NCBI GenBank assembly: GCA_905181725.1
Contig: CAJIYX010000005.1
Coordinates: 13,655-77,654 of the forward strand
DNA: 64,000 nt
Direction: 5' to 3'
Source: Alphaproteobacteria bacterium UBA830
Lineage (GTDB): Bacteria; Pseudomonadota; Alphaproteobacteria; MPNO01; UBA830
In this document: piece after piece, positions 10,573 to 60,349 of the stretch
Numbering within the stretch: the stretch's first letter is position 1
How the letters are laid out: each line of letters begins with the position of its first letter
The notes under the pieces: generated by a model
Databases searched by the model: none
What the model was told of the DNA's origin: nothing
What the model saw: the letters and a program-made list of their open reading frames with translations, nothing else
Program-made: the position numbers and the translations under genes

Positions 10573-11421
10573 CTAATCCTTTATCTGAAGTGCCCAGTTT
10601 GCCAGGGTTGTCGCGTTTTTCCAGTCGATCCGTTCTGCCAGGTCGCGCGGCAGAGATTTAAGCCAGGCCCGGATCCAGCTCGCATGGTCCTCGACGAAGT
10701 ACCAGCGTTCCGGCGTGTAGGTGTCGGTGCCGATCATGAATCGGTCGGAGAATTCGGCGAACAGTTGCGCCCATTCGGCATCCGCTTTGCCGCCGGCGCC
10801 GTGGCTGCTGCGGAACGCGAGGTCCGACCACAGACATTTGTGCTTGGCGAGCATGGGGAAAATGGGGTCGGGCTCAGCGAAACCGGAATGCGCCCACAGC
10901 ACGGTTGCGCCCGGCCATTGCTTGAAAATGCGGTCAACCGGATCGGCATCGGAATGGGCATGGAGGAATACTTTGTATTTCTTGGCGAACTGCACGACCT
11001 TGTGGAAAACCTCGCGATCGGCATCCTCAGCGAAAATATGAAACTCGCCGATCTCGGCATATCCGCCATTTTTAAGGCGGCTTTCTAGCAGTTCGATCAC
11101 CGTCGGGTCGCGGAACCAGATGCCAAGCTTGCCGCGTTTCCGATAGGGGCGCAGCACCGGCACGATTAGGTTAGACGCGGCGGCATAATGCACCTGCGTG
11201 CCCTAGTAGCTGGAACTGGAAACGAAGGCTTTCTTCAGCCCCGCGCGCCGCAGCACGGCGATCGCGTCTTTGGACGGTAGGTCGTCCCAGGCGTCATGGC
11301 TGTAATGCAGATGCGCATCCACCAGCGGCATGATATCCGCGGCTTGCGCAGGCACAGGGGAGGCCGCCGCCGAGATGGACAGGATGCCGGTGGCAAACAG
11401 GCTTTTGAGGACGTGTTTCAT
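10573..11421 (-). pseudogene. secreted amidohydrolase (TIM-barrel metal hydrolase) interrupted by one in-frame TAG
   Basis: ORFs 11203-11670 and 10573-11193 are in the same frame. The read is MKHVLKSLFATGILSISAAAS...PLVDAHLHYSHD...FVSSSSY-TAG(11203-11205)-GTQVHYAAAS...HAHSD...GTDTY. The signal peptide plus HxH metal motif lie upstream of the stop, and the rest of the barrel lies downstream. Confidence 0.7.
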
Positions 11422-11566
11422 AGCTGTATCCGTTCTACTCGGGTCCTCCCGGACCATCGATGGTCGGAACTTAGGGGGACGGGAGCGCTCGGTCCAGTGA
11501 CAGCCATCACGGCCGGCGTAATTGTCAGCCTTGTTGGGCGTAGTTTTAGCCCGTTGGGCGTAGCTG

Positions 11567-12727
11567 TCAGTTTGGGAGGCCGAGAACCCGTTTGGCGAGG
11601 ATATTGCGCTGAATCTCGCTGGATCCGCCATAAATCGTCGCGCGGCGGACCTGCAGGAACAGCGGGGCAATCTCGATCGGGCCGTCTTCAGTCATTACAC
11701 GACCGGTCAGGGCGGCATCCGTCCCTGCGGCATCCAGTAAAAGATCGGCGAGGCGTTGCAGTGTTTCGGTGCCAGTGATCTTCATGATCGATGCATCGAG
11801 CCCGAGGGAGCGTTCGGCATTGGCGATTTCTGCGGCATGGGCAAACATCGCGGCAAACCCCACCGTATCGATCTCGATTTCTGCCAGGCGTTCGCGAAAA
11901 TAGGGGTCGTCTAGGGCGCCGTTGGCCCGCGCAACTTTCTTGACGCGTTCCAGCGCATCGAACAGAAGCTGCGGATTGGCGGTGCCGAGCCGCTCATGCG
12001 CTAGCAGCGCGTTTGCGACCCGCCAGCCATCATGCAGGTCGCCGACCAGATTGGTCATCGGCACTCGCACGTCGTCCATGAAGACTTCGGCGAATTCGTC
12101 GTCGCCGGCGATTGTTTTGATCGGGCGGATATCGATCCCGGGGGTTTTCAGATCGATCAGCACGAAGCTGATGCCCGCCTGCTTACGCGGTGCGTCCGGG
12201 TCGCTGCGGACCAGGGCGAACATCCAGTCCGAATACTGGGCCCATGTGGTCCAGATTTTGGATCCGTTGATGATAAAATCGTCGCCGTCGATATCGGCGC
12301 GGGTGCGCAGACTGGCGAGATCCGATCCGGCGCCCGGTTCCGAATAGCCCTGGCACCAGGATTCATCTCCGGTCAGGATCGACGGCAGGAAACGTTCTTT
12401 CTGGGCGTCCGTGCCGAATGCCATCAGGATCGGGCCGACATGGTTGATACCCTGCGCAGAAATTTCGGGCGCGCCGGCACGGGCGAGTTCTTCTTTCAGG
12501 ATGATCTGCTGGTTGAGCGTCGCTTCCATACCGTTATGGCTTTTGGGCCAGGCAGGCGCGATCCAGCCTTTGCCGTACAGTTCGCGGTGCCACCATATGG
12601 CGCGGTCGAATGGGGGGCGCGTGGACCAGCCGCGCAGATCGTCGGGCAGGGTAGCGGCGATCCAGTCACGGATTTTTGCGCGGAAGGATTTTTCGTCGGG
12701 TGTGTCGGTGCGGAAGCTGATGGACAT
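11567..12727 (-). CDS. acyl-CoA dehydrogenase family protein
   Basis: 386 aa with typical ACAD layout (WCQGYSEPGAGSD, C-terminal IYGGSSEIQRNI). Confidence 0.9.
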   Translation of the reverse strand: MSISFRTDTPDEKSFRAKIRDWIAATLPDDLRGWSTRPPFDRAIWWHRELYGKGWIAPAWPKSHNGMEATLNQQIILKEELARAGAPEISAQGINHVGPILMAFGTDAQKERFLPSILTGDESWCQGYSEPGAGSDLASLRTRADIDGDDFIINGSKIWTTWAQYSDWMFALVRSDPDAPRKQAGISFVLIDLKTPGIDIRPIKTIAGDDEFAEVFMDDVRVPMTNLVGDLHDGWRVANALLAHERLGTANPQLLFDALERVKKVARANGALDDPYFRERLAEIEIDTVGFAAMFAHAAEIANAERSLGLDASIMKITGTETLQRLADLLLDAAGTDAALTGRVMTEDGPIEIAPLFLQVRRATIYGGSSEIQRNILAKRVLGLPN

Positions 12728-12788
12728 GGTAAAAACCTAGCGTATAACGCGAAGGGACGCCAAACATCAAAAACGGGAGGAATCCAGA

Positions 12789-13622
12789 ATGGCTTTACGG
12801 GAACACTACGAATGTGTCGTCGTCGAGATCGACGATGACGGCATCGCCTGGGCAACCTTTAACCGGCCCGAAAAACGCAACGCGATGAACCCGCAGCTTC
12901 ATTACGACATGGAGCATATCCTGATCGAGCTGGAAACCGAGCCGTCGGCAAAGGTGATCGTGCTGACCGGTGCCGGCAACAGCTGGAGCGCGGGCATGGA
13001 TTTGCGGGAATATTTCCGCGAAACCGACAACGATCCGGAAGCGCAGTACAAGTCGTTCATGGCGAACAAGCATTGGAGCTGGGATATCCTCAGCAATTCA
13101 CGCAAACCGACGATCGCCATGGTTAATGGCTATCTGTTTGGCGGGGCCTTCGTGCCGCTCGCCAATTGCGATCTGGTGGTGACCGATGAAGACGCTATCT
13201 ACGGGCTGTCGGAAATCAACTGGGGGATTATCCCGGGCGGTATTGTCTCGAAGGTGATCGTCGACAAGATGCCGTTCCGCAACGCCATGTTCTATTCGAT
13301 GACGGGGCGCACGTTCGATGGCAAAAAAGCTGTTGAAATGAATCTCGCCGATATCGCCGTGCCTGCCGACAAGCTGCGCGCGGAAACCATAGCCCTCGCC
13401 CGGGAGCTGATGGAAAAAAGCCCGGTCGCGCTGGCCTTTACCAAGCAGGCGTTGCGCGCCGTAGTCAACATGGATGTGCCGCAATCCTACGAATACCTGA
13501 TGACCAAGATCCAAGCATTGCAGTTCATGGACAAGGAAAAGACCCGTGCCCGCGGCATGGAGGAATTTCTCGACAACAAGACCTACCGGCCCGGTCTGGG
13601 CGCGGTCAAGCGCGAAGAGTAA
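12789..13622 (+). CDS. enoyl-CoA hydratase/lyase, hydroxycinnamoyl-CoA hydratase-lyase (HCHL)-like
   Basis: 277 aa of crotonase fold. NRPEKRNAM, GAGNSWSAGMDL, GLSEINWGIIPGG and the C-terminal FLDNKTYRPGLGAVKR closely recall the feruloyl-CoA hydratase/lyase subfamily (from memory, not searched). Confidence 0.8.
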   Translation: MALREHYECVVVEIDDDGIAWATFNRPEKRNAMNPQLHYDMEHILIELETEPSAKVIVLTGAGNSWSAGMDLREYFRETDNDPEAQYKSFMANKHWSWDILSNSRKPTIAMVNGYLFGGAFVPLANCDLVVTDEDAIYGLSEINWGIIPGGIVSKVIVDKMPFRNAMFYSMTGRTFDGKKAVEMNLADIAVPADKLRAETIALARELMEKSPVALAFTKQALRAVVNMDVPQSYEYLMTKIQALQFMDKEKTRARGMEEFLDNKTYRPGLGAVKREE

Positions 13623-13638
13623 GGGCGGCGTCTCTCAC

Positions 13639-13671
13639 AAAAAAAGGGCCGGTCATCAGACCGGCCCTTTG
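13639..13671. terminator. bidirectional rho-independent-type hairpin
   Basis: aaaaaaagggccggtc-atca-gaccggccctttg: a GC-rich 10-bp stem with an A-run on one side and a T-run on the other. It lies between convergent genes. Confidence 0.7.
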
Positions 13672-13705
13672 CGTATTCGCGGAGACGTATTAACGGAGAC
13701 GGGCG

Positions 13706-14418
13706 TCAGTTGACGTGCAGTTCCTCCGGCAGGAACATCATCGCATCCTGATCTTCGGCCACCGCGTTGTGGCATTCGTAGCAGAACTTGATCGACGATT
13801 TACCTTTGCCGTTGGTCGTGCCCACGGTCTGGCCGTTCGGTATGATCAGCGTTTACTGCTAGTCATGGGTGTTTCCGTTAAAGCCGGCAGTGCGCTTTTC
13901 CATCAGGAAGAGCGGGCCGACCGAAACCTGGCCCTTGCCGTTGACGGTGAAGCTGTTCTTCGCCGTCACAGCACCTGGCGTCATCTTGCCGGCATTTTCA
14001 TACTTGCCGTAATTGGACGCTTTCTCGTTGGCATAGTTCAGCACGTAGCGCTGGCCATGGGTTCCCGAGATATAGGGCTGCTTCGCGTAGTTCTTCCAGT
14101 TCAGGAAGATCTTTGCGTATTTGTTGCCCGACTTGGCATAGGTGGATTTCATTTCGCCTTTGAGGCAGTCATAGACCGCGTTGGCTTCTGCCGTGGTCAG
14201 CTCGGCCGGGGCTGCCGCCGCACCACAGGGTCCGCACCGCAGGGATTGCAGGGGTTCTTTGCAGCGCAGGGGTTTTTCGCAGCGCACGGATTGGCAGCGA
14301 TCTGGACGGTCGGTGTTGCGCCTGAATTGGCGGCAACGGGGGCCGACAGCACGCCGGCCGCCAGAATTTCTGCCGGTATCACGGCAGACGATAGAAACGA
14401 TGTTTTAAAGGGTTTCAT
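13706..14418 (-). pseudogene. cytochrome P460-like periplasmic haem protein, disrupted (1 frameshift, TAG and TAA)
   Basis: Signal peptide, then an NPCAAKNPCAAKNPCNPCG repeat (ORF 14197-14418). The frame shifts at a C-run near 14228-14232 into ORF 13859-14287. The sequence then reads ...NGNTHD-TAG(13859-61)-Q-TAA(13853-55)-TLIIPNGQTVGTTNGKGKSSIKFCYECHNAV...*. The C-terminal CxxCH therefore lies beyond the stops. Confidence 0.7.
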
Positions 14419-14633
14419 ACGGTTAGTCCCTTCCCTAAGAGGTTAGTGTTATGGGGGCGCTCAATGACTTGAAAATCGCCCCACGCTTAAATTAGACGCT
14501 TCACCCTACCTGAGTGGCCCGGCCGCTTCGCGTAACTTGCGATAAAGATTGCGTTACTCTTTTTATCGGTATTTTTTTCCGGCACGTCCCTGCCGGGTTC
14601 TCCTTTACGCCACTACCGAGCCCCCTCCTGCCG

Positions 14634-15344
14634 CTATCGGGCAAGGCGATAGCCGCCATACTCCGATAGCAGGATCTGCGGTTCGGACGGGTTTTCCTCG
14701 ATCTTCTGGCGCAGGCAGTAAATTTGGGTCTGCAGGGTATGCGTCATCGGCGCCGCCGAGTGATCCCATATGTCGGCATAGAGCGCTTCGCAGGTCACCG
14801 CGGTGTCGCCGGCCCAGTAGAGCTGTTTGAGGATCGCGTGCTCTTTATCGCTCAGGCTGATGTCTTTCCTGCCGTCATTGCGCTGAAGCGCTTTGATCGA
14901 CGAGCGAAACATGTAGGGCCCGACGCTAAAGGACGCGTCTTCGCTCATTTCGTGCTGGCGGATATGGGTGCGCAGCCGCGCCAGCAGCACGCCCAGCCGG
15001 AAAGGCTTTGTGACATAGTCATTGGCACCCTAATCCAGCCCGAGGACGGTATCCGCGTCGCCGTCGAGAGCTATCAGCATGATCACCGGCGCGTGAACGC
15101 CTTTTCGCCGCAGCAGACGGCAGACATCACGCCCGTCCATGTCGGGCAGGCCGACATCCAGCAGGATCGCATTGTAATTGTTCTTTTCGGCGCCAGCGAG
15201 GGCGGCGGCGCCTGTTCCGGCCTCCTCGACATCGAATTCCTCATAAAGCCGCAGTTGTTCCGCCAGCGTGCGGCGGAAACCCGTGTCGTCTTCGACTATT
15301 AGTATGTTTCGGTTTTGGCCGCCTGCCATGCCTGTGTTCTCCAT
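14634..15344 (-). pseudogene. OmpR-family response regulator interrupted by one in-frame TAG
   Basis: The receiver ORF (15030-15344; ILIVEDD, LLDVGLPDMDG) ends ...VLGLD-TAG(15030-32). The same frame continues GANDYVTKPFRLGVLLARL... into the winged-helix ORF 14634-14990. No histidine kinase is adjacent. Confidence 0.75.
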
Positions 15345-15451
15345 CGACTGGCGTAAAGGCTAGGACTCATCCGGTCAGATGGAAAATCACGAGGCTTCAC
15401 CTTTTGGCGATGTGACCCGGGTGCGGTGTAATACAATCCGAACACAAAAGC

Positions 15452-16330: not shown

Positions 16331-16333
16331 CTT

Positions 16334-17578
16334 TTACCTCACAAAATCGACCGAAAGGTCGGTGATCTCCGCGTGTTCCTGGTCCGGCATCGCTTTGCGC
16401 TTTTCCATGATCTCTTCGGGGTCCCAGGTGGCTGCCAGCTCGCGCAGCCGCGGATAGACCTCGTCGGCGTATAGCTGCATCGACCGCAGCGTATCGTCTT
16501 TCGGCAGATGACCGGCCTGACCCATCATCAGCATGTGGCCGAAGCCGCCGGAATATTCCCAAAACGCCTTGATCTGTTCATAGACCTGATCCGGTGTGCC
16601 GGCGAATACGTTGCCGCGGCGCATGTGCTCCTTCAGGTCCGTGCTGTAGGCAGCACCCGAGCCCGAAATATGCGCACCCTTCATGATGCCTGCGGCTACC
16701 TGCGGCGGATGATAGCCGGGCGGATTCTTCCACTGTTCCGTCACTTTGTTGGCCTGCATGTACCACATCAGCTCGTTCGCGCCCTTTTCGACGGCGCGTT
16801 CGTCGTCACCGACATAGACCAGCCCGCAATAGGCCAACCGGTCGAGCGGGGCGTGGGTGCCGTGATGTTTCAGATAGTTTTCGCGGTAGGCATCAAAGAC
16901 CGGCCGCACGCGTGAATACCCGGCTAGGAAGACCGCCGCGACATGGCCGTGCTTTGCCACCGGGTCGGTGCTGCTTGCACCGCCGGTCGTGATCCATACC
17001 GGGGGGTGCGGGTCTTGGTAGGGGCGCGGCCAGATATTGACCTGGCGGTGGTGGTAATACTTGCCTTCGAAATTGAACGGCCCGTCATGGGTGGTCCATG
17101 CCTTCATGATCAGGTCATGCGATTCCCACAGCCGCTCCGAGCCCTTATAGGGCAGCATGTTCGCCGCCGCCGCCTCATAGGGCACGCTACGCACAAAGCC
17201 GCATTCGAGCCGGCCCTTGGAGATCACATCGATCAGCGCCATTTCCTCGGCGACACGGACCGGCTGGTTCCGGTTCGGCAGCGGGTTGCCAAGGATCAGC
17301 AGGCGCGCGTCCTTCGTCTGACGTGCCAGAATACCGAGCATGATGGGTGCCGCCGGGATCATGCAGGTTGCCGTCTGGTGATGCTCGTTGACCATGATGT
17401 CGAGGCCCATTTCGTCGGCCGCACACCAGATATCAAGATACTCGTTATAAAGCCGGTGGGCGTTTTCCGGCTCGCAGAGCTGGTTCGGCAGATCGACGCG
17501 GATCGAGTCCCATTCATCCTGCGGCGGCAGGTCGGGGTAGCAGTCCTCGGTAAAAAACCAGGTCCTCATCGTCGTCAT
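16334..17578 (-). CDS. luciferase-like (LLM class) flavin-dependent monooxygenase, paralog 2
   Basis: ORF 16334-17665 trimmed to the ATG at 17576-17578, downstream of the preceding stop (17625). It is very similar to the upstream paralog, with long identical blocks such as HDGPFNFEGKYYHHRQVNIWPRPYQ. Confidence 0.8.
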   Translation of the reverse strand: MTTMRTWFFTEDCYPDLPPQDEWDSIRVDLPNQLCEPENAHRLYNEYLDIWCAADEMGLDIMVNEHHQTATCMIPAAPIMLGILARQTKDARLLILGNPLPNRNQPVRVAEEMALIDVISKGRLECGFVRSVPYEAAAANMLPYKGSERLWESHDLIMKAWTTHDGPFNFEGKYYHHRQVNIWPRPYQDPHPPVWITTGGASSTDPVAKHGHVAAVFLAGYSRVRPVFDAYRENYLKHHGTHAPLDRLAYCGLVYVGDDERAVEKGANELMWYMQANKVTEQWKNPPGYHPPQVAAGIMKGAHISGSGAAYSTDLKEHMRRGNVFAGTPDQVYEQIKAFWEYSGGFGHMLMMGQAGHLPKDDTLRSMQLYADEVYPRLRELAATWDPEEIMEKRKAMPDQEHAEITDLSVDFVR

Positions 17579-17624
17579 TAGCGCGATTCCGTTCGTTTGG
17601 TATATGCGTAAAAAGGAAGCTGGA

Positions 17625-18854
17625 TCAGCGGACGAATTCGACCCCGAAATTGCCGAGATCGACACCGTCCTTGACCGGCATCGCCTTGCTCTTTTCCCAC
17701 AGCTCGGCGGGATCGGCGTTCTTTGCCAATTCGATCAGGCGCGGCTCGACCTCGCTCTTGTAGAGCTTCATCGATTTGAGCGCATCCTCATCCGACAGGA
17801 ATCCGGCCTGGCCCATCATTAGCAAGTGGCCGAAGCCGCCGGAATATTCCCAGAATGCCTTGATCTGCTCGAACACCTGATCCGGCGTCCCGGCAAACAC
17901 GTTGCCACGCGCCATCTGGTTCTCCAGCGTCGGGTTGGTCGGCACGCCCGATCCGGTCACGCCTTTCATCACCTGCGCGGAAACCGCCGGCGGGTGATAG
18001 CCGGGCGGGTTGCTCCATTCCGGCGGAACCTTGTTGGCTTCCATGTACCACAGCAGTTTGCGCGCGCCTTCTTCGGCCTCCCGTTCGTTCTCGCCGATAT
18101 AGCAAAGACCGAGATAGGCGAGCCGGTCGAGCGGCGCGTGCTCGCCATGGGCATCGAGATAGCTCTGACGGTAGCCATCGAATACGCTGCGGATCCTGGG
18201 ATAGCCTGCCAGGAACACGGCGCCGACATGCTTGTGCTGCGCCACCGGCACGGCCGATCCGGCGCTGCCCATCGTAATCCACACCGGCGGGTGCGGCTGC
18301 TGATAAGGGCGCGGCCAGATATTGACCTGGCGGTGATGGTAATACTTGCCTTCGAAATTGAACGGCCCGTCATGGGTGGTCCATGCCTTCATGATCAGGT
18401 CATGGGCTTCCCACATCCGCTCGGACCCCTTGTAGGGCAGAATATTCGCCGCCGCTGCTTCATAGGGCACGCTGCGGACGAAGCCGCATTCGACGCGCCC
18501 CTTTGAGATCACATCGACCAGTGCCATTTCCTCGGCGACACGCACCGGCTGATTGCGGTTGGGCAACGGATTGCCGAGTATCAGCAGGCGGGATTTGGAC
18601 GTCTGGCGGGCAAGAATGCCAAGCATGATCGGGGCTGCCGGGACCATGCAGGTCGCCGTCTGGTGATGCTCGTTGAGCATGATACCGAGGCCTATTTCGT
18701 CACAGGCGCACCACAGATCAAGATAGCGGTTATAAAGATCGTGGGCGACTTCCGGCTCGCAAAGCGCGTTCGGCAGATCCACGCGGATCGACCGGTAGGT
18801 GCTTTCATCGGGTAGGTGCGGATAGCAATCTTCGGTAAACCACCAGGATTTCAT
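17625..18854 (-). CDS. luciferase-like (LLM class) flavin-dependent monooxygenase, paralog 1
   Basis: ORF 17625-18902 trimmed to the ATG at 18852-18854, preceded by an AGGGAG RBS. The N-terminus MKSWWFTEDCYPHLP parallels MRTWFFTEDCYPDLP of paralog 2. Confidence 0.8.
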   Translation of the reverse strand: MKSWWFTEDCYPHLPDESTYRSIRVDLPNALCEPEVAHDLYNRYLDLWCACDEIGLGIMLNEHHQTATCMVPAAPIMLGILARQTSKSRLLILGNPLPNRNQPVRVAEEMALVDVISKGRVECGFVRSVPYEAAAANILPYKGSERMWEAHDLIMKAWTTHDGPFNFEGKYYHHRQVNIWPRPYQQPHPPVWITMGSAGSAVPVAQHKHVGAVFLAGYPRIRSVFDGYRQSYLDAHGEHAPLDRLAYLGLCYIGENEREAEEGARKLLWYMEANKVPPEWSNPPGYHPPAVSAQVMKGVTGSGVPTNPTLENQMARGNVFAGTPDQVFEQIKAFWEYSGGFGHLLMMGQAGFLSDEDALKSMKLYKSEVEPRLIELAKNADPAELWEKSKAMPVKDGVDLGNFGVEFVR

Positions 18855-18870
18855 CGCGTCGCTCCCTATA

Positions 18871-19856: not shown

Positions 19857-19857
19857 G

Positions 19858-21384: not shown

Positions 21385-21400
21385 GGAATTATGTGTCCCG

Positions 21401-22224: not shown

Positions 22225-22245
22225 ACGGTTGTCGCGCCCCTGAGT

Positions 22246-23497: not shown

Positions 23498-24158
23498 ATG
23501 GCATCACGATTAGGCGATATCGCTCCCGATTTCGAAGCTCAGACCACCCAGGGACCGATCAAGTTCCACGGCTGGATCGGCGACAGCTGGGCGATCATAT
23601 TCTCTCACCCCCAAGGATTTTACACCCGTCTGCACCACCGAGCTCGGCTAAATGGCGAAACTTCAGCCCGAGTTCGAAAAGCGGAACGTCAAGATTATCG
23701 GCCTGTCCGCCGACGGCGTCGAAAACCACGATGCCTGGGCAAAGAACATCGAGGAAACGCAGGGCACCGCGCCGAAAAAACCGATCATCGGCGATACCGA
23801 TCTCAAGGTCGCAAAGCTCTATGACATGCTGCCGGCCGGTGCCAGCGGGGATCCCGCCAGCCGGACCCCGGCGGATAACCAGACCATCCGCACCGTGTTC
23901 GTCATCGGGCCGGATAAAAAGGTAAAACTCTCTATCACCTATCCGATGACCACGGGCCGTAATTTTGACGAGATCCTGCGGGTCGTCGATTCCATGCAGC
24001 TGACGGCGCGCCAGCCAGTAGCGACCCCGGTGAACTGGAAGCCGGGCGATGACGTGATCATCGTCGCCTTGGTGTCGAACGAAGACGCGGCGGAAAAGTT
24101 CCCCAAGGGTTTTACCGAGCACAAACCCTATCTGCGGACGACTTCCGACTCGAGCTGA
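23498..24158 (+). pseudogene. 1-Cys peroxiredoxin (Prx6-type), disrupted (frameshift plus in-frame TAA)
   Basis: MASRLGDIAPDFEAQTTQGPIKFHGWIGDSWAIIFSHP is followed by a 5-C run (23608-23612). After this the conserved KDFTPVCTTELG is encoded one frame over. It runs into TAA (23649-23651), immediately followed by MAKLQPEFEKRNVKIIGLS... (ORF 23652-24158). Confidence 0.8.
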
Positions 24159-24316: not shown

Positions 24317-25035
24317 TCAGGCGACGCGTTTGCGTCTTGCCAATCCGAGACCGAGGAGGCCGAGCCCGAGAATCCCCAGCGTGGCTGGTTCAGGAACTTC
24401 GGTGGTGGCGATGAAGTCGATCAAAGCCAGCTGAAGGTCCGCCTACGTGTTCGTCGTCACCAGCGCAATGTTGATGTAATCAATCGCAGTGAAGTCCACC
24501 GGACCACCGACAAACGGTGCGTATGCGAAAAAAGAGGCACAAACGAAGCCAGCCCTGGCGTCGGAATCACCAGGCTCGACGTATTCACACCATCGGAAAC
24601 TGTCAAAGCTATATTGGTCGAGAAATCTCCGGCAACTACAAGGAGGCTGAAGGCATTGAGGGAGCCGTCTTCTGTCACATCCACGCCCCCGAGACCGCCG
24701 CCCCCGATACCATTATATGAGATGTTTGAAACGGAGAACGCGTCGGTGTTGCCCAGGGTCAACAGGCCCGATGTACCGACACTGATGCTGACGCTTGAGG
24801 GTGTGGTGCCCGGACCGAGCTGCTCAACGGATATAGTGCGATCCGTAACGAGAATGTTCACTATATCGGACACGGTCGAAGAGGCAGCGCCACTGCCGCT
24901 GCCATCGACAACGAGCTGGTTGGTGGTGAAGTTGTCGATTGTGAGTGCCTGTGCAGAGCCGACCGACAGGGTCGTTACCGCAAGTGCCGTGAGCATCTTT
25001 TTAAATATCGATTCCTTCCCGCGCGCTAAGCTCAT
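24317..25035 (-). pseudogene. PEP-CTERM sorting-domain secreted protein, disrupted (frameshift plus in-frame TAG)
   Basis: Signal peptide MSLARGKESIFKKMLTALAVTTLSVGSAQA, then a Ser/Thr/Gly-rich body (ORF 24457-25104). After a 6-nt homopolymer (24528-24533) the neighbouring frame reads AYAPFVGGPVDFTAIDYINIALVTTNT-TAG(24443-45)-ADLQLALIDFIATTEVPEPATLGILGLGLLGLGLARRKRVA*. Confidence 0.7.
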
Positions 25036-25229
25036 ATATTTCGCACTCAACCTGGTTTTCTGACCTAAACTGCACGCAATAGTCGTGCCAGATTCTGGAA
25101 ACACTATTTATCAAAAGGTTAGGTTAACGTCCAACTATGTGGGCCACCCTGGTTGTAAAATATACCGACGGTTTATCCGCGGTTTTGCTCAAGCAGGGGC
25201 CGAGCGGTGGCCAGGCGGTGGCTTCTGGC

Positions 25230-25475
25230 TGGAAGCGGACATCAACGAACACCGCATCTCGGCTTTATGATCAGCACTGGGGGAGACAGTGCCGCTCTTC
25301 GGTTTATCCCGAACGGATGATCCGGATGCTGCTGGTCGGTTACTGCTCGTCGACGCGTTCCGACCGTCGGCTGTGTCAGCAGGTTGAGCTTGGTCTGGCT
25401 TACAGGTGGTTCTGTCGGCTTGGGCCTGAGGATACGGTTCAGGTATCTGTGTTCGTCAAACCGCAGTTGCGCTAA
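25230..25475 (+). mobile_element. IS5/IS1182-type transposase N-terminal (DUF772-like) fragment, degenerate
   Basis: Part of ORF 25137-25475 reads GRQCRSSVYPERMIRMLLVGYCSSTRSDRRLCQQVELGLAYRWFCRLGPEDTV. This resembles the conserved GRPxxxPxxMxxxLLxGYxxxxRSERxLxxxVxxNLAYRWFCxL region of these transposases. There is no DDE domain and I saw no inverted repeats. Confidence 0.5.
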
Positions 25476-29441: not shown

Positions 29442-31597
<2,156 letters not shown>

Positions 31598-33607: not shown

Positions 33608-34240
33608 ATGAAACCGTTCTTCGAAACCGTGATGGCCCCCGCGACCGGCTGGGCCGATGCGATCAAAACCGGCCAGCGCCTGCGCGTGACCGATCTTGAA
33701 GGTCTGCAGGTTGTCGATATGGCGGTGTTCAACGCGCAGAACGTGCGCGAAAAACTGTCGACGTCCTATTCGCGCTCGCGTGCCGGGACAGAGAGACTGG
33801 GGGGCGAGGACGGGCTCCATCCGCGCGACCGTCTGTTCGAAGGCGATTTTCTGATGTCGACCATCAATAACGAGATCATGCGCATCACCGCCGATACGGC
33901 AGATGTCAAAGGCATGCACGATGTTCACGGCCGCATGTGCAACCGCCATCTCTATGCCGCGATGGGTGCCGGCGAAAAGGACGGCTGCCACGAGATTATT
34001 TCCGGCGTCGTCGCCCCGTAGGATCTAAGGCCGGAAGACATTCCCGATACGATCGACCTGTTCATGAACTTTCATCACGACTGCACGCAGGGCTGGTGGG
34101 TGCTCGAAGACGGCGTGTCGAAACCGGGCGACTATATCGAATTCGAGGCACTGATGGATTGCGTGGTCGCGCTGTCCAACTGCCCATTCTATCGCGGCAC
34201 GCCGATGAAAGTTGAGATATTCGAGGTAGACGCAACATGA
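33608..34240 (+). pseudogene. DUF1989 (urea-carboxylase-associated) family protein interrupted by one in-frame TAG
   Basis: The ATG at 33608 opens MKPFFETVMAPATGWADAIKTGQRLRVTDLEG...ISGVVAP-TAG(34019-21). The same frame continues DLRPEDIPDTIDLFMNFHHDCTQGWWVLEDGVSKPGDYIEFEALMDCVVALSNCPF...*(34238-40). The full length is 633 nt and stays in frame. Confidence 0.7.
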
Positions 34241-47204: not shown

Positions 47205-48014
47205 ATGGGTCTCTTCAACAAACTTTCCACTACCGTCTCGGCAGCGGTTGTTGCCGTCAGGCTTGCGATTTCCGCACCGGCCGCCAATGCCGGCGTGATC
47301 CAGCTCGGCTTCATCATGGACAGTTCTGGCAGCATCGGCTCCAGCAACTGGAACACGATCAAGGGTGCCCTCGCCAATGCGGTGAATACGCTGGTCCCGA
47401 CCAACGGTGCCTATGAAAACACCGTGGTGAACTTTTCGAATACGACGACCGCGGCGGTTAATCACGTTCTGATTGACAGCGTTGCCGCGCGGACATCCGC
47501 GGCGAATGCGATCAACGCGATGGCCTTTATCGGCAACACGACAAACATGGCGGCGGCCTTTAGTGCCATGACGTTAGCGCTGACCATCTCGCCCCAACTG
47601 TCGCCGGTCGCAACCTATGAGGGGAAGATCGTCGGCTAGAACATCGTCAATGGTCCGTCCGCGACGGCGGATTATTCGGTGTTGCCGAGCAGTGTGTACA
47701 CGATCCCCGCCTATAGCAGCGTCGGGCCGACCGAAGAAGAAGCGCGGGAGGCGGTCCCGAACCTGCGGGTCTCCGCAAACGATATGGCCGGCTGGTTCAG
47801 CGCCAAGTCCTATGCGGAGACCGCGGCCTGGTCCAAGATTCCCATCGACGAGGACACCGACCACATCGTCGGCGCCCATATAATCGGCCATCACGGCGAG
47901 GATCTGATCAATCTGTTTGTCCTGGCGATGAAAAACGGCATCACGGCATCGGTGCTGAAAGACACGATCTTCGCCTATCCGACGTTCTCATCGGATGTGA
48001 AAAACATGTTCTGA
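47205..48014 (+). pseudogene. chimeric ORF: secreted VWA-domain N-terminal half fused in frame to the C-terminal dimerisation domain of a pyridine-nucleotide-disulfide oxidoreductase, with in-frame TAG
   Basis: Signal peptide plus MIDAS DSSGS (FIMDSSGSIG). Around 47590 the sequence switches to ...PQLSPVATYEGKIVG-TAG(47637-39)-NIVNGPSATADYSVLPSSVYTIPAYSSVGPTEEEA...GAHIIGHHGEDLINLF...YPTFSSDVKNMF*. This is the C-terminal third of a glutathione-reductase-family flavoprotein. ORFs 47205-47639 and 47679-48014 share one frame. Confidence 0.65.
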
Positions 48015-49680: not shown

Positions 49681-49687
49681 TGTCCGG

Positions 49688-51893: not shown

Positions 51894-51910
51894 TCGGTGT
51901 TCTTTTCCCG

Positions 51911-53782: not shown

Positions 53783-53817
53783 TGCGGAGGCATCTTACGC
53801 GCCAGGCGTCTTGCGCG

Positions 53818-55677: not shown

Positions 55678-55769
55678 GGCCTTTGGTCCCTGTTTTAACG
55701 TGCTCTTGAATGTGATGATTCCTGCCGGAATGACAAGTTTTCCCGGGAACAACACGATTAGTTGAGGTG

Positions 55770-56549: not shown

Positions 56550-56620
56550 ACGCGCAGTCTGTCGCAAATTGGGGTCGTTTGAAAGGGGATGGTTTGAAAC
56601 GGAATGCGCAGATACAGGCG

Positions 56621-57124
56621 TTAATGCCCGACCTTGTAGCTGAAGGCCGACACGACGCGGTTGACGCGGTGGCCGTCATCGGACAGCGGCAACAGAATGC
56701 TGCGATACAGCACTTCCTGGCCCTTCTTGTTGAAGAACCGTCCGACATCAGCCATCGGTTTTTTGAGATCGACCGACGCACGGCAGAATGACAGGCCCAT
56801 TTCGGTGGAGGATGGAAGCGTGTCGAGCACGGAAAGCCCGGTCGGGTCCCGGCCAAGTGCTGCCCGGACATGTTCGCCGGCGGCGACGACCCTGTCATCA
56901 AGCTCGCTGACGCCTACTTCTATCACCAGGGAATCTTCGGCCCCGAACGGGCAGTCATCCATATCCAGCACAGATGACATTGGCAGTTCACCATCTTTGC
57001 GCACGCTTTCCCAGAACTTAAGCGCTTTTCCCACTAATCTGTTCTCGACACTCGAACGCACGCGCGTCGTCGCCTCAGAAGCCGAATGCTGATGATCCAA
57101 TGTCACCCCCCCTAAAATACGCAT
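56621..57124 (-). CDS. PAS-like domain protein (alphaproteobacterial PAS_5-type hypothetical)
   Basis: 167-aa non-overlapping ORF. The pattern FWESVRKDGELP...YRSILLPLSDDG recalls the small PAS-domain family common in alphaproteobacteria. Confidence 0.5.
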   Translation of the reverse strand: MRILGGVTLDHQHSASEATTRVRSSVENRLVGKALKFWESVRKDGELPMSSVLDMDDCPFGAEDSLVIEVGVSELDDRVVAAGEHVRAALGRDPTGLSVLDTLPSSTEMGLSFCRASVDLKKPMADVGRFFNKKGQEVLYRSILLPLSDDGHRVNRVVSAFSYKVGH

Positions 57125-57233
57125 ACTCTACCTACTACCAATAAGAACCTATTCTGTCCGGGTAGTGGTTTACAAATAGTTAATGCACCCTCGAAAGAGC
57201 CGATGAACCAGCAATTTGGGGTAGTGCGCGGTT

Positions 57234-58283
57234 TTATTTTAACGGTGCGGGGGTATCGGCCAGGGTACGTAGATAGGCGATAACATTGGCCCGGTCGCTG
57301 TCTTTGCGAAGACCGGCAAAGGTCATTTTGGTGCCCTTGGCATAGTCGCGCGGCTTCAGCAGGAACGCGTTCAGATTTTCGTAGGTCCAGGCTGTGCCGG
57401 CCATCGCAATGATGGCTTTTGAGTACTTGAAGCCGTCACGGGCGCCCTTTTTGGCGTTGACGACATTCCACAGGTTCGGACCGATGCCGTTTTTGCCGTC
57501 TTTATTGACGGTATGGCATGACTTGCACTTGTTGAACACGCGCTTGCCCTTATCGAGATCGGCAGCGCCGAACATTTCGGCATTATTGATTATCGGGGCA
57601 GCTGGCGCAGTGGGCGCGGCGCTGGCGGTCTGTGTGACCTCCGCGACGGCAGCCTTGGCCGGCTCGGCGGCGGCTTTCACGGCTTCCATAGCCGCCTGTT
57701 TGGCCGCTTCCAGCGCTTTGGCGGCGGCATCGATTGCGGCCTGTGTGGGCAGCGGGGCAGGCGTGTCGGCCGCTGCGCGCAAATAGGCGATCATGTTTGC
57801 CCGTTCCGATGCCTTTTTCAGCCCGACAAAGGACATCTTGGTACCCGGAATGTAGTCCTTCGGCTTCGCCAGGAAGGCGTTCAGGCTTTCATAGGTCCAC
57901 GAACCTTCTTTTTCGAGCAGGGCGCCGGAATACTTGAATCCCTCATGCGAGCCGCGTTTGGCGTTGACCGTGTTCCACAGCATGGGGCCGATTTTGTTTT
58001 TGCCGTCTTTGGCAAAGTCGTGACAGGCAGCGCATTTCTTCGCGACCTTCTTACCCGCTTCGACATTGGCAGAGGCAAGCATGGCCAATATCGGTTCCAG
58101 CGGTTGCTTGACCTTCGGCTTTTTCACGGCGGCCGTTACGGTTGCGTCGCCCCCATGTCCGCCACCACCACCATGTCCGCCGCCCGTGGTTACCAGATTG
58201 TCGCCGATCTTGCCGATGACCACCAGGGTAAGAACCGCGACCAGAAGTGCACCGACGATCTTGTTAAGCTCGAATGACGACAT
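57234..58283 (-). CDS. membrane-anchored di-haem class I cytochrome c
   Basis: Trimmed to MSSFELNKIVGALLVAVLTLVVIG (ATG at 58281-58283). It has two cytochrome c domains (CAACH, CKSCH) that are internal duplicates, joined by an Ala-rich linker. Confidence 0.85.
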   Translation of the reverse strand: MSSFELNKIVGALLVAVLTLVVIGKIGDNLVTTGGGHGGGGGHGGDATVTAAVKKPKVKQPLEPILAMLASANVEAGKKVAKKCAACHDFAKDGKNKIGPMLWNTVNAKRGSHEGFKYSGALLEKEGSWTYESLNAFLAKPKDYIPGTKMSFVGLKKASERANMIAYLRAAADTPAPLPTQAAIDAAAKALEAAKQAAMEAVKAAAEPAKAAVAEVTQTASAAPTAPAAPIINNAEMFGAADLDKGKRVFNKCKSCHTVNKDGKNGIGPNLWNVVNAKKGARDGFKYSKAIIAMAGTAWTYENLNAFLLKPRDYAKGTKMTFAGLRKDSDRANVIAYLRTLADTPAPLK

Positions 58284-58490
58284 GTCAGAATTCCGTTGGA
58301 GTGTGAAAAGTTGCAACCGATTGAACCGGCAGCACAAATTAACTGTTACGTACGAGTCTGTCTAATTTCCCCGACTTTCCGTGTCACGAATACGGCATTC
58401 CCGCCAGCGAACAAGGGGTATAATGTCGCACCTGCTTGCCTGTCCGGTGTCCGGAATGCATCAAAACACCAAGAGAATGCGCCCAAACTT

Positions 58491-59279
58491 ATGTCCAGAC
58501 CGTTAAATCCCGTCGTTATCGTGCCTGCACGGCTGGCCGCGACCCGTTTTCCCGACAAGCCGCTCGCCGATATTCATGGTGTGCCGATGATCGTGCAGGT
58601 ACTGCGCCGCGCGATGGAGGCCGATATAGGCCCTGTTCTGGTGGCCTGCGGCGACCGGGAAATTGCCGATGCGGTCGAGGTCGCAGGAGGCCGGGCGGTG
58701 ATGACGGATCCGGGTCATCCGAGCGGGTCCGACCGGGTGCATGAGGCACTCGGGCTGTTCGATCCGGACCGGCGCTACAATACGGTGGTCAATATTCAGG
58801 GTGATCTGCCGACCATCGATCCCGGCGTTATTGCGGCCGTGCTCGATCCGTTCGATGTTGAAGAGGTTGACATCACGACGCTTGCGGTCGAAATCACCGA
58901 GGCGCGCGAACGCACCGACCCCAATGTGGTTAAGGCGGTAATTGCCCTGGCCGGTGCCGACGCCGGTGCGGACACAGGTGCGAACGCAAAGGCCCGCATT
59001 GGCCGGGCGCTGTACTTCAGCCGGGCGACCGTGCCTGCGGTGGCGGAAGGTCCGCATTATCATCATATCGGGCTGTATGGATTCCGCCGCGATGCGCTCG
59101 ATCGTTTCGTGGCCCTGCCGCCCGGACGGCTTGAGGTGCTCGAACGGCTCGAACAGCTCCGCGCCCTCGAAGCCGGGATGCGCATCGATGTTGCGCTCGT
59201 TGACACTGTTCCGCTCGGTGTCGATACTCCCGCCGATCTGGACCGGGCGCGGGCATTTCTGGCGTCCGGTTTAACCTGA
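58491..59279 (+). CDS. kdsB: 3-deoxy-manno-octulosonate cytidylyltransferase
   Basis: Trimmed to MSRPLNPVVIVPARLAATRFPDKPLADIHGVPMI (ATG at 58491). KdsB signature motifs are present, including NIQGDLP. Confidence 0.9.
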   Translation: MSRPLNPVVIVPARLAATRFPDKPLADIHGVPMIVQVLRRAMEADIGPVLVACGDREIADAVEVAGGRAVMTDPGHPSGSDRVHEALGLFDPDRRYNTVVNIQGDLPTIDPGVIAAVLDPFDVEEVDITTLAVEITEARERTDPNVVKAVIALAGADAGADTGANAKARIGRALYFSRATVPAVAEGPHYHHIGLYGFRRDALDRFVALPPGRLEVLERLEQLRALEAGMRIDVALVDTVPLGVDTPADLDRARAFLASGLT

Positions 59280-59296
59280 ATCGGGGTTCGAAAATC

Positions 59297-60178
59297 ATGG
59301 TTTCTCGCAAAAAAGCCGGCGGCAGCGCCCGCGCAGCGCCTTCGCGCACCATCGCGTTTCAGGGCCAGCCCGGCGCCTATTCGCACCTGGCCTGCCGTCA
59401 GTATTTCCCGGACATGATGCCCATGCCGACCGCGGCATTCGAGGATACCTTCGCTGCCGTGAGTGATGGCAAGGCGAAGCTCGCGATGATCCCGATCGAG
59501 AACTCGGTTGCCGGGCGCGTAGCCGACATTCACCGGATCATGCCGGATTCCGGTCTGCATATTATCGGTGAGCGGTTCCTGCGGGTGAACCATCATTTGC
59601 TCGCGCTGCCCGGTGCGACGCTGAAATCGATAAAGCGCGTGCACAGTCACGTCCACGCGTTGGGCCAGTGCGGCCGGTTTCTCCGCAAACACGGGCTCGA
59701 AGCCGTCGTCCATGCCGACACCGCGGGGGCGGCGGCAGACATCGCGGTGTCCGGCGATACCGCCCAGGCGGCAATCGCATCCGAACTCGCCGGTGATGTG
59801 TATGGGCTTAAATCGTTCCGCGCGAATATCGAAGATGCCGAACACAACACTACGCGCTTCATCGTCATGTCGAAGACGGCGTCCCGACCCAAGCGCAATA
59901 ACGGCCCGGTGGTGACGAGTTTTGTCTTCCAGGTGCGCAATGTGCCTGCAGCCCTGTACAAGGCGATGGGTGGGTTTGCGACCAACGGAATTAACATGAC
60001 CAAGCTTGAAAGCTACATGGTCGACGGCGATTTCGTGGCCACGCAGTTCTATGCCGATGTCGAGGGCGATCCGCGGGATACAAACCTGAAGCTGGCACTC
60101 GAGGAATTGGACTTTTTCACCCATAAAGTGACGATCCTCGGCACGTATCCGGCCGATCCTTTCCGGTTCGGAAAATAA
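59297..60178 (+). CDS. pheA: prephenate dehydratase
   Basis: 293 aa: a PDT domain (FQGQPGAYSH, ENSVAGRV) plus a C-terminal ACT domain (TRFIVM..., ESYM). The long minus-strand ORF 59063-60730 is its antisense shadow. Confidence 0.9.
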   Translation: MVSRKKAGGSARAAPSRTIAFQGQPGAYSHLACRQYFPDMMPMPTAAFEDTFAAVSDGKAKLAMIPIENSVAGRVADIHRIMPDSGLHIIGERFLRVNHHLLALPGATLKSIKRVHSHVHALGQCGRFLRKHGLEAVVHADTAGAAADIAVSGDTAQAAIASELAGDVYGLKSFRANIEDAEHNTTRFIVMSKTASRPKRNNGPVVTSFVFQVRNVPAALYKAMGGFATNGINMTKLESYMVDGDFVATQFYADVEGDPRDTNLKLALEELDFFTHKVTILGTYPADPFRFGK

Positions 60179-60349
60179 TCTCGGCTCGGGTTGGTGGATA
60201 TCCAAACCTAGCTTGAGGCCGCGCTGCAGGACGCGCAGGCAGGCCGTTTTCCGGAAGCGGAAGCAAAGCTGGTCGCAATCCTGGAGCCACAGCTGAGCGA
60301 CAACGATACCGCGACGATCCAGGGGATCCTGGGCGCGGTATACGCCTCC

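What the first reader, a model, noticed from the sequence alone, without database searches (positions are those of the whole stretch)
11203..60211. Eight conserved genes are split by in-frame TAG codons, with no in-frame TGA, across about 50 kb
In every case, reading through the stop restores recognisable family sequence on both sides.

The eight sites are:
- amidohydrolase, TAG 11203-05 (minus strand)
- P460-like gene, 13859-61 (minus strand)
- OmpR regulator, 15030-32 (minus strand), reading GLD*GANDYVTKPF
- PEP-CTERM protein, 24443-45 (minus strand)
- katG, 31556-58, at a conserved Trp
- DUF1989, 34019-21
- VWA/oxidoreductase chimera, 47637-39
- TPR protein, 60209-11

Two TAA codons (13853-55, 23649-51) and four homopolymer-associated frameshifts sit in the same set of genes.

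TAG also terminates at least a dozen intact genes here (for example 3823-25, 6466-68, 27565-67, 44368-70), so it works as a stop. Five of the eight in-frame TAGs lie in the tetranucleotide CTAG.

Three explanations are possible: consensus or base-calling error (perhaps motif- or methylation-linked), a genuine burst of pseudogenisation, or amber suppression/readthrough. The bias towards one stop codon is what makes this worth checking.
Basis: partly seen in the sequence, partly recalled or inferred. Interest (0 to 1): 0.8.

Follow-up and report, generated by a model that had tools for sequence, protein, structure and literature searches.

The report
Recent nonsense-mutation pseudogenes in a marine alphaproteobacterium
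The eight in-frame TAG codons are real, recent knock-out mutations that differ between co-existing strains of an uncultured marine alphaproteobacterium, so they are ordinary decaying genes; the excess of TAG is about what this GC-rich codon usage predicts, not a sign of a changed genetic code or a sequencing error.

Summary
All eight in-frame TAGs and both TAAs are at the stated coordinates. An unbiased scan finds no in-frame TGA interruption.

They are not assembly errors. The same stops recur in independent assemblies from other samples and pipelines.

They are not a recoded codon. Sister strains 95-99% identical carry sense codons at seven of the eight sites: AAG, TGG, TCG, TGG, TGG, CAG, and ATG in a sister species. 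A distant homologue has Lys at the eighth. That is five different amino acids.

The same genes also carry TAA stops, homopolymer frameshifts and deletions. They show raised nonsynonymous/synonymous ratios. In sister strains they are knocked out independently at other positions: katG three times, the 1-Cys peroxiredoxin at least three times, the OmpR-type regulator twice, the P460-like gene many times. Neighbouring genes are intact.

Codon usage alone predicts 52-57% TAG, 19-35% TAA and 13-24% TGA among one-step nonsense mutations. The window's 8:2:0 is therefore not significant (P about 0.07-0.2). Pooled over strains (12-14:4:0), the lack of TGA is only borderline.

Verdict: genuine, ongoing pseudogenisation, which is ordinary. 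The repeated loss of peroxide-defence genes is a modestly interesting side result.

The parts
10573..11421 (-). Amidohydro_2-family (TIM-barrel metal hydrolase) pseudogene. In-frame TAG at 11203-11205, derived from AAG (Lys).
   Evidence: Intact 282-284-aa orthologues exist. Strains L111-L115 have AAG at the site. The TAG is shared with L009, L010, L011 and L110. The window lineage has further changes at conserved positions, such as D->Y next to the stop. Against L111, synonymous/nonsynonymous counts are 5/27.
13706..14418 (-). Cytochrome-P460-like pseudogene. TAG 13859-61 (from TGG), TAA 13853-55 (from TAC), and an inferred -1 frameshift near the C-run at 14228-30.
   Evidence: The repaired protein hits PF16694 at E=1.6e-5, below the curated cut-off. 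L009 has TGG and TAC at the two sites. Other strains carry different stops, CAG->TAG twice and GAA->TAA, plus 1-bp deletions. The signal peptide and NPC repeats are in a different frame from the P460 part in all strains.
14634..15329 (-). OmpR-family response regulator pseudogene. TAG 15030-32, derived from TCG (Ser).
   Evidence: Pfam Response_reg spans the stop and Trans_reg_C follows. The gene is an intact 231-aa ORF with TCG in L009 and L111. L110 has an independent 10-bp deletion three codons downstream.
23498..24158 (+). 1-Cys peroxiredoxin (AhpC-TSA + 1-cysPrx_C) pseudogene. +1 C in the C5 run at 23608-12, and TAA 23649-51, derived from TAY (Tyr).
   Evidence: The repaired protein gives full-length Pfam hits. 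Relatives L118 and L140 are intact. L116 has C4 but keeps the TAA. L104, L167 and L120/L160 are inactivated in other ways.
24317..25035 (-). PEP-CTERM secreted-protein pseudogene. TAG 24443-45 (ATG in a sister species), and a -1 frameshift in the T6 run (A6 on the + strand, 24528-33).
   Evidence: The PEP-CTERM motif lies downstream of the TAG. The TAG is fixed in all strains of the species. The run is T7 and in frame in L116. Sister species L118 and L119 read ...PMAD... at the site.
29483..31597 (+). katG catalase-peroxidase. TAG 31556-58, derived from TGG (a conserved Trp), removes the last 13 residues.
   Evidence: It aligns 1-703 with Synechococcus KatG 3wxo, and the stop falls on W. The site is TGG in L116, L135 and four sister-species contigs. 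L116 and L135 are broken elsewhere, at codon 55 and at codon 114 plus frameshifts. Sister species keep a 708-codon ORF.
33608..34240 (+). DUF1989-family gene. TAG 34019-21, derived from TGG (Trp).
   Evidence: The Pfam and PDB alignments span the stop. The site is TGG in L116 and in L117, L118, L119 and L140, and TAG in the window, L003 and L005.
47205..48014 (+). Deletion chimera of the N-terminal half of a VWA domain fused to the C-terminal end of a pyridine-nucleotide-disulphide oxidoreductase. TAG 47637-39 lies inside the oxidoreductase remnant (Lys in a homologue).
   Evidence: Pfam finds VWA profile positions 3-88 of 174 plus Pyr_redox_dim positions 2-109 of 110. Homologue L143 reads ...YEGRIIGKNIVEGP... 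across the site. The arrangement and the TAG are fixed in all strains seen.
60194..61066 (+). TPR-repeat protein gene starting at GTG 60194. TAG 60209-11, derived from CAG (Gln), at codon 6. Gene callers restart it at ATG 60350.
   Evidence: Orthologues P0121-P0123 and P0131 begin MD(I/T/L)Q..L(E/D). L186, 98.6% identical, has GTG GAT ATC CAA ACC CAG CTT. The TAG is present in the 10 other contigs examined.
25137..25475 (+). DUF772 transposase fragment next to the PEP-CTERM pseudogene. This is context showing decay or rearrangement in the region.
   Evidence: Pfam PF05598 at E=3e-12, covering part of the profile.

Best explanation
The window comes from an uncultured, apparently marine alphaproteobacterium whose accessory genes are being lost one by one.

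Each in-frame TAG is an ordinary single-base nonsense mutation of a sense codon: AAG, TGG, TCG, TGG, TGG, CAG, a Lys codon, and one older two-step change from ATG. Each arose in this species or in the window's sub-lineage. Once a gene is dispensable or dead, further lesions pile up in it, including TAA stops, slips in homopolymer runs, small deletions and amino-acid changes. Other strains hit the same genes at other positions.

TAG predominates because the codons one step away from TAG (CAG, TGG, GAG, TCG, AAG, TAC) are the common ones in a genome with GC-rich third positions. The codons one step from TGA (CGA, GGA, AGA, TCA, TTA, TGT) are rare.

Shown: the stops are real and reproducible, the ancestral codons, the independent lesions, the relaxed constraint, and the codon-usage expectation.

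Inferred: that the interrupted genes are non-functional, and why they became dispensable.
For: 1. **Reproducibility.** The window's TAGs recur in assemblies of other samples and from other pipelines: ENA ERZ23495422 and ERZ23495146, Logan ERR4918858, NCBI GCA_054189545.1 and JGI contigs.
2. **Sense codons at the sites in strains 95-99% identical.**
   - P460-like TGG and TAC, OmpR TCG (L009)
   - amidohydrolase AAG (L111-115)
   - katG TGG (L116, L135) and DUF1989 TGG (L116)
   - TPR CAG (L186)
   - sister species or homologues give ATG for the PEP-CTERM gene and Lys for the oxidoreductase remnant
3. **Other kinds of lesion in the same genes.** TAA at 13853 and 23649, a C5 insertion, a T6 deletion and an inferred frameshift in the P460-like gene.
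4. **Independent knock-outs in sister strains.**
   - katG at codons 55 and 114, plus frameshifts
   - OmpR 10-bp deletion
   - P460-like CAG->TAG twice, GAA->TAA and 1-bp deletions
   - peroxiredoxin start loss, 10-bp and 1-bp deletions and three more stops
5. **Relaxed constraint.** Nonsynonymous versus synonymous counts in broken and intact genes give odds ratios of 5.5, 7.6 and 12, with P from 7e-6 to 6e-17. Intact neighbours carry no lesions in any strain.
6. **Expected stop-type mix.** TAG 52-57%, TAA 19-35%, TGA 13-24%.
7. **TAG is a normal terminator here**, ending 13 of 51 intact genes.
Against: - Pooled over all strains, the independent nonsense events number 12-14 TAG, 4 TAA and 0 TGA, and TGG went to TAG four times and never to TGA. 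The absence of TGA is borderline (P about 0.01-0.06). The count is post hoc and drawn from only nine genes.
- The katG stop removes only 13 residues, and the catalytic motifs are intact. In the window strain that protein might therefore still work.
- The TPR gene could still be expressed from ATG 60350.
- No expression or protein data exist, and the rest of the genome was not available for a suppressor-tRNA scan.
Confidence: 0.9

Rival explanations
1. Assembly, consensus or base-calling error, possibly linked to a motif such as CTAG or to methylation. Under this reading the true genome has sense codons.
For: Five of the eight TAGs lie in CTAG. Homopolymer frameshifts occur in the same genes.
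Against: - The same TAGs, TAAs and homopolymer lengths are found in independent assemblies from different BioSamples, studies and assemblers.
- Other strains in the same collections show the sense alleles, so the pipelines can call both states.
- The lesions are confined to genes that also show raised nonsynonymous/synonymous ratios.
- The CTAG association is not significant (P=0.20).
- The substitutions include transitions and several kinds of transversion, not one error type.
Confidence: 0.02
2. Amber suppression, readthrough or codon reassignment. Under this reading TAG is at least partly decoded as an amino acid, so the interrupted genes still give full-length protein, and TAG nonsense alleles are tolerated more than TGA alleles.
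For: TAG is over-represented and TGA is absent among 16-18 pooled nonsense events (borderline). The sequence downstream of several TAGs is still well conserved.
Against: - The ancestral residues are K, W, S, M, W, W, K and Q, so there is no single meaning.
- The TAG positions are polymorphic, not conserved.
- The same genes carry TAA stops, frameshifts and deletions that no suppressor could rescue.
- Constraint is relaxed after the stop. The amidohydrolase, for example, accumulates changes at conserved residues.
- TAG terminates 25% of intact genes, which I judge from my own knowledge to be normal usage for a GC-rich alphaproteobacterium.
- No tRNA genes at all were found in the window or in 19 related loci.
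- Conserved downstream sequence is what recent mutations would leave anyway.
Confidence: 0.04
3. The pseudogenes are real but reflect selection rather than drift. Under this reading, loss of costly, leaky functions is favoured in a free-living marine population that can rely on neighbours (Black Queen dynamics). The functions concerned are the peroxide detoxifiers KatG and 1-Cys peroxiredoxin, plus a regulator and a secreted protein. This is a refinement of the best explanation, not an alternative to the stops being knock-outs.
For: katG has three independent knock-outs within one species while sister species keep it intact. The peroxiredoxin has at least three independent knock-outs, including one in a sister species. 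Loss of katG is the founding example of the Black Queen hypothesis (PMC3315703).
Against: Repeated hits are also expected from plain relaxed selection on a gene that was already dispensable or dead. All strains share a 12-nt in-frame deletion near the katG C-terminus that might have been the first lesion. No frequency, fitness or expression data are available, and the environment of the samples could not be verified.
Confidence: 0.3
4. A mutator or damage-driven burst, for example oxidative 8-oxoG or UV damage. This would explain both the number of lesions and the stop-type spectrum.
For: About six of roughly 16 nonsense events are G:C->T:A changes, and four are TGG->TAG with no TGG->TGA. The peroxide-defence genes are broken.
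Against: The spectrum is mixed, with transitions, A->T and C->A changes. Intact neighbouring genes show low nonsynonymous/synonymous ratios and no lesions, so there is no sign of a genome-wide mutational meltdown. The numbers are too small to fit a spectrum.
Confidence: 0.1

Closest known systems
Bacterial pseudogenes formed by nonsense and frameshift mutation (gene decay under relaxed selection, as in recently niche-restricted or streamlining bacteria)
   Same: Sense-to-stop point mutations; extra frameshifts at homopolymers; small deletions; raised nonsynonymous/synonymous ratios; strain-to-strain polymorphism in which genes are broken and how; intact orthologues in relatives.
   Different: Seen here in an uncultured, apparently free-living marine alphaproteobacterium. 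The density is high for one 64-kb stretch, about 9 of roughly 62 genes. Several genes have multiple independent knock-outs segregating within one species.
Black Queen gene loss of katG in marine bacterioplankton (Morris et al. 2012, PMC3315703)
   Same: A catalase-peroxidase is lost in a marine bacterium. A second peroxide-detoxifying enzyme, 1-Cys peroxiredoxin, is lost in parallel, and the losses are repeated in different lineages.
   Different: Here the genes are still present as fresh pseudogenes rather than absent. Selection rather than drift is not shown, and dependence on helper organisms is not shown.
Amber (UAG) suppression and reassignment systems: pyrrolysine (pylTSBCD) and suppressor tRNA-CUA
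   Same: Only the superficial pattern of in-frame TAG inside recognisable genes.
   Different: The sites are not conserved and no single amino acid is replaced. TAG is used normally as a terminator. The same genes carry TAA stops and frameshifts. No tRNA or pyl genes are seen in the sequence available.

Membership tests
Ordinary pseudogene (nonsense or frameshift decay) | Close relatives carry a sense codon and an uninterrupted ORF at the site | tested here: met
   Seven of eight sites are resolved with DNA of sister strains or species: AAG, TGG, TCG, ATG, TGG, TGG, CAG. The eighth is Lys in a distant homologue.
Ordinary pseudogene (nonsense or frameshift decay) | Additional, different disabling lesions in the same genes | tested here: met
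   TAA twice, a C5 insertion, a T6 deletion and a deletion chimera in the window. Independent stops, deletions and start loss in sister strains.
Ordinary pseudogene (nonsense or frameshift decay) | Relaxed purifying selection relative to neighbouring genes | tested here: met
   Nonsynonymous:synonymous counts, broken against intact genes: 30:19 vs 21:73 (L116), 44:11 vs 45:86 (L111), 49:13 vs 97:310 (L110). Fisher P from 7e-6 to 6e-17.
Ordinary pseudogene (nonsense or frameshift decay) | Loss of the protein or its function | not testable with these tools
   No transcript, protein or activity data. The katG truncation of 13 residues and the TPR restart at ATG 60350 could leave partial function.
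Amber suppression / UAG reassignment (Pyl or suppressor tRNA) | A tRNA with a CUA anticodon (and pylTSBCD for pyrrolysine) in the genome | not testable with these tools
   No tRNA genes in the window or in 19 related loci. The rest of the genome is not available.
Amber suppression / UAG reassignment (Pyl or suppressor tRNA) | In-frame TAG at conserved positions across orthologues, with purifying selection maintained | tested here: not met
   The sites are polymorphic within the species and are sense codons in relatives. Constraint is relaxed.
Amber suppression / UAG reassignment (Pyl or suppressor tRNA) | TAG avoided as a true terminator | tested here: not met
   TAG ends 13 of 51 intact genes.
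Amber suppression / UAG reassignment (Pyl or suppressor tRNA) | TAG-specific interruptions only, with no TAA, TGA or frameshifts in the same genes | tested here: not met
   TAA and frameshifts or deletions co-occur in the P460-like, peroxiredoxin, PEP-CTERM, katG (L135) and OmpR (L110) genes. TGA is indeed absent.
Assembly or base-calling artefact | Not reproducible in independent assemblies or samples | tested here: not met
   Identical lesions in ENA, Logan, NCBI and JGI assemblies from other BioSamples.
Assembly or base-calling artefact | Significant association with a sequence motif | tested here: not met
   CTAG context in 5 of 8 sites against 41.7% expected, P=0.20.
Black Queen adaptive gene loss | Repeated independent loss of a leaky, costly function in a free-living lineage | tested here: met
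   Three independent knock-outs of katG and at least three of the 1-Cys peroxiredoxin. That the lineage is free-living is assumed from the marine metagenome sources.
Black Queen adaptive gene loss | Loss is favoured by selection, and the function is supplied by community members | not testable with these tools
   Needs population frequencies, fitness assays or co-culture.

The most novel reading that the evidence does not exclude
The lineage carries a weak amber suppressor or an unusually leaky UAG termination. TAG nonsense alleles would then be nearly neutral and accumulate preferentially, while TGA alleles are purged. This would account for the pooled tally of 12-14 TAG : 4 TAA : 0 TGA, and for four TGG->TAG changes against no TGG->TGA.
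Probability: 0.04. Interest if true: 0.7.

Novelty: new member of a known kind. Interest (0 to 1): 0.22.

Why it matters
- It removes a false lead. A run of in-frame TAGs in a GC-rich genome should not by itself be read as recoding, because codon usage already makes TAG the majority nonsense product. A scan should apply that null expectation before flagging this kind of pattern.
- It shows that public metagenome assemblies can resolve such questions without raw reads. Sister strains supplied the ancestral codon at nearly every site.
- Biologically, it documents a marine alphaproteobacterial population in which the same accessory genes are being knocked out repeatedly and independently. Two of them are peroxide-defence enzymes. 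This is a possible natural snapshot of gene loss in progress.

Tried and rejected
- GC3 alone did not separate genes from shadow ORFs. I used the public gene calls attached to matching contigs instead.
- Pfam with X at the stops missed the amidohydrolase and the P460-like gene.
- The GTDB genome scan with PheA gave taxonomy only. The best hit was an uncultured alphaproteobacterium at 82%, followed by Rhodospirillaceae-like MAGs. No close genome turned up, and no relative had the TPR gene next to pheA.
- Literature searches for the sample, run and assembly accessions found nothing, so the habitat is inferred only from contig names.
- tRNA scans of the window and 19 loci found nothing.
- The CTAG or methylation-motif idea was rejected.
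- The idea that TAG 60209 was merely intergenic, lying 31 nt after the pheA stop, was considered and rejected once orthologues showed the gene starts at GTG 60194.

Full report
**Source of the window.** The window is about 60% G+C and contains no tRNA genes. It is nearly identical to metagenome contigs from several independent sources:
- ENA ERZ23495129, scaffolds 426 and 653
- Logan assemblies of ERR4918858 and ERR4918860
- contigs from BioSamples SAMN25861433, SAMN25861434 and SAMN25861438
- the NCBI MAG GCA_054189545.1
- several JGI metagenomes

Its DnaX carries the DUF3646 domain (PF12362); that this domain is typical of alphaproteobacteria is from my own knowledge. The best PheA match among GTDB species representatives is an uncultured alphaproteobacterium from a Tara Oceans run at 82%, followed by Rhodospirillaceae-like MAGs. 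More distant syntenic relatives sit on contigs labelled marine, seawater or TARA. I therefore treat the organism as an uncultured marine alphaproteobacterium. Literature searches on the accessions found nothing.

**Checking the observation.** Homology on both sides of each stop is confirmed as follows.
- OmpR-type regulator and DUF1989: confirmed by Pfam and, for DUF1989, by PDB alignment.
- katG: end-to-end alignment with solved KatG structures puts the stop on the conserved Trp of FVAAWTKVMN.
- Amidohydrolase: many intact 282-aa orthologues cover both halves.
- TPR protein: orthologues begin MDIQTQLEAAL. The gene therefore starts at GTG 60194 and the TAG is its sixth codon, not intergenic sequence.
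- PEP-CTERM gene: the sorting signal lies downstream of the TAG.
- P460-like gene: the label is only weakly supported. The repaired protein scores 25.8 bits against a cut-off of 27.
- VWA/oxidoreductase: an in-frame deletion chimera of two gene remnants, with the TAG inside the oxidoreductase part.

TAG terminates 13 intact genes, TGA 22 and TAA 16. Two frameshifts are verified against relatives, the C5 run at 23608-12 in the peroxiredoxin and the T6 run at 24528-33 in the PEP-CTERM gene. One more is inferred in the P460-like gene. I did not find a fourth.

**Is the TAG bias more than chance?** I took the codon usage of the window's genes and counted every single-base path to a stop codon. The expected shares are 52-57% TAG, 19-32% TAA and 16-24% TGA over a range of transition and GC-to-AT biases. 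With only the affected genes they are 52-57%, 23-35% and 13-21%. The main sources of TAG are CAG, TGG, GAG, TCG and AAG, all common codons here. TGA can arise only from TGG and a set of rare codons. For 8:2:0 the probabilities are about 0.07-0.12 for the TAG excess and 0.06-0.18 for no TGA, without correcting for the pattern having been picked because it looked odd. The CTAG context (5 of 8) has P=0.20, because 42% of codons end in C.

**Not an artefact.** The katG and DUF1989 TAGs are present in a contig from a different BioSample (L003). The DUF1989 TAG is also in the NCBI MAG (L005). The amidohydrolase TAG is in L009, L010, L011 and L110. The peroxiredoxin and PEP-CTERM lesions are in six or more contigs from ENA, Logan and JGI. 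The VWA chimera is in nine contigs and the TPR TAG in ten. The same collections also hold the sense alleles, so both states are being called.

**Ancestral codons.** Strains 95-99% identical to the window carry sense codons at the sites.

| Site | Window | Ancestral state | Where seen |
|---|---|---|---|
| Amidohydrolase 11203 | TAG | AAG (Lys) | L111-L115 |
| P460-like 13859 | TAG | TGG (Trp) | L009 |
| P460-like 13853 | TAA | TAC (Tyr) | L009 |
| OmpR 15030 | TAG | TCG (Ser) | L009, L111 (both intact, 231 aa) |
| Peroxiredoxin 23649 | TAA | TAC or TAT (Tyr) | L104, L167, L118, L140 |
| PEP-CTERM 24443 | TAG | ATG (Met) | sister species only; the TAG is fixed in this species |
| katG 31556 | TAG | TGG (Trp) | L116, L135 and four sister-species contigs |
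| DUF1989 34019 | TAG | TGG (Trp) | L116 and four sister-species contigs |
| Oxidoreductase remnant 47637 | TAG | Lys | distant homologue L143 |
| TPR 60209 | TAG | CAG (Gln) | L186 |

The TAGs therefore replace five different amino acids, through transitions and several kinds of transversion.

**These genes are decaying.** The same genes carry other lesions in the window: TAA stops, homopolymer slips and a deletion fusion. Sister strains break them independently.
- katG has AAG->TAG at codon 55 in L116. In L135 it has TGG->TAG at codon 114 plus 2-bp and 4-bp deletions. Four sister-species contigs keep a 708-codon ORF.
- The OmpR-type gene has a 10-bp deletion in L110, three codons from the window's TAG.
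- The P460-like gene has CAG->TAG (L009, L111, L113), a different CAG->TAG plus 1-bp deletions (L110), and GAA->TAA (L111, L113).
- The peroxiredoxin has a 10-bp deletion (L116). It has a 1-bp deletion in the start codon and changes in the PVCTTE active-site motif (L104, L167). It has three further stops (L167) and a 1-bp deletion in a sister species (L120, L160).

Nonsynonymous changes are enriched in the broken genes relative to intact neighbours in three independent strain comparisons, with odds ratios of 5.5, 7.6 and 12 and P from 7e-6 to 6e-17. Intact neighbours show no stop gains or frameshifts in any strain.

In the amidohydrolase, L110 shares the TAG but keeps ancestral flanking residues. 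The window lineage has since changed conserved ones, for example D->Y next to the stop. That is the order expected if the stop came first and constraint was then lost.

**Explanation.** This is genuine, ongoing pseudogenisation by ordinary point mutations and small indels. Some lesions are old and fixed in the species:
- the PEP-CTERM TAG
- the peroxiredoxin TAA, shared with L116
- the VWA chimera
- the P460-like frameshift

Others are young and confined to the window's sub-lineage:
- the katG, DUF1989, OmpR and P460-like stops
- the two homopolymer slips

About nine of roughly 62 genes in the window are affected. That is high, but most of this stretch consists of accessory catabolic and stress genes.

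**Rivals.**
- Sequencing or assembly error is refuted for practical purposes.
- Amber suppression or reassignment fails three of its four testable hallmarks. The sites are not conserved, TAG is a normal terminator, and the same genes carry lesions no suppressor could rescue. The fourth hallmark, a tRNA-CUA, could not be tested.
- A mutator or DNA-damage burst is not supported, because neighbouring genes evolve under normal constraint.

**What remains unexplained.** Pooling all independent nonsense events found in the species cluster gives 12-14 TAG, 4 TAA and 0 TGA. TGG went to TAG four times and never to TGA. With an expected TGA share of 13-24%, zero in 16-18 events has P about 0.01-0.06. 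The count is post hoc and comes from nine genes, so I treat it as borderline. Chance, a context-dependent mutation spectrum, and (least likely) a TAG-specific tolerance all remain possible.

**Side result.** The two peroxide-defence genes in the window, katG and the 1-Cys peroxiredoxin, have each been knocked out at least three times independently, while sister species keep them. Loss of katG in marine bacterioplankton is the founding example of the Black Queen hypothesis (PMC3315703). Whether selection or plain relaxed constraint drives the losses here cannot be decided with these data.

**Verdict.** The stop-codon bias that motivated the finding is largely a consequence of codon usage. The phenomenon is of a well-known kind, and interest is low to modest.

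Noticed in passing
window 29483-31597 and 23498-24158; loci L116, L135, L104, L167, L120, L160: Both peroxide-defence genes, katG and the 1-Cys peroxiredoxin, are inactivated repeatedly and independently in co-existing strains, while sister species keep them intact. The pattern resembles Black Queen gene loss caught in progress.
   Followed up: partly
window 14634-15329; L110 5873-6573: The OmpR-family regulator is hit twice independently within about 10 bases: TCG->TAG in the window and a 10-bp deletion in L110. It is intact in L009 and L111.
   Followed up: yes
window 9009-11421: The two genes downstream of the broken amidohydrolase in the same apparent operon are a 141-aa YtkA-like protein and a MauG-type cytochrome c peroxidase. 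Both also show raised nonsynonymous/synonymous counts against L111 (11/7 and 13/11), so the whole operon may be decaying.
   Followed up: no
whole window: CTAG is about ten-fold under-represented (22 found, 229 expected from base composition). Five of the 22 are the new nonsense sites.
   Followed up: partly
window 25137-25475: A DUF772 transposase fragment lies beside the PEP-CTERM pseudogene and is present in several strains.
   Followed up: no
window 60543-60709; L186, P0121, P0122: The TPR gene varies in repeat number between strains. An in-frame 165-nt segment (two repeats) is present in the window and absent in L186. The strain with the intact start has the shorter gene.
   Followed up: partly
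window 16334-18854; L009, L104: Two paralogous luciferase-like monooxygenase genes, about 76-78% identical, appear as a single 411-aa gene in some strains' contigs. This is either a recombinational deletion or an assembly collapse.
   Followed up: no
window 31517-31520 region; alignment: All strains of the focal species lack 12 nt (four codons...AQDD...) near the katG C-terminus that sister species and solved KatG structures have. This could be an earlier lesion that pre-dates the independent stops.
   Followed up: no
pooled over window and loci L009-L186: Among 16-18 independent nonsense events none is TGA, and TGG->TAG occurred four times against no TGG->TGA. The result is borderline (P about 0.01-0.06, post hoc) and unexplained.
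   Followed up: partly
window 33608-34240; PDB 9q59/9q5a: The DUF1989 domain also matches part of a recently solved trimethylamine N-oxide demethylase. This is a possible functional lead for the family.
   Followed up: no
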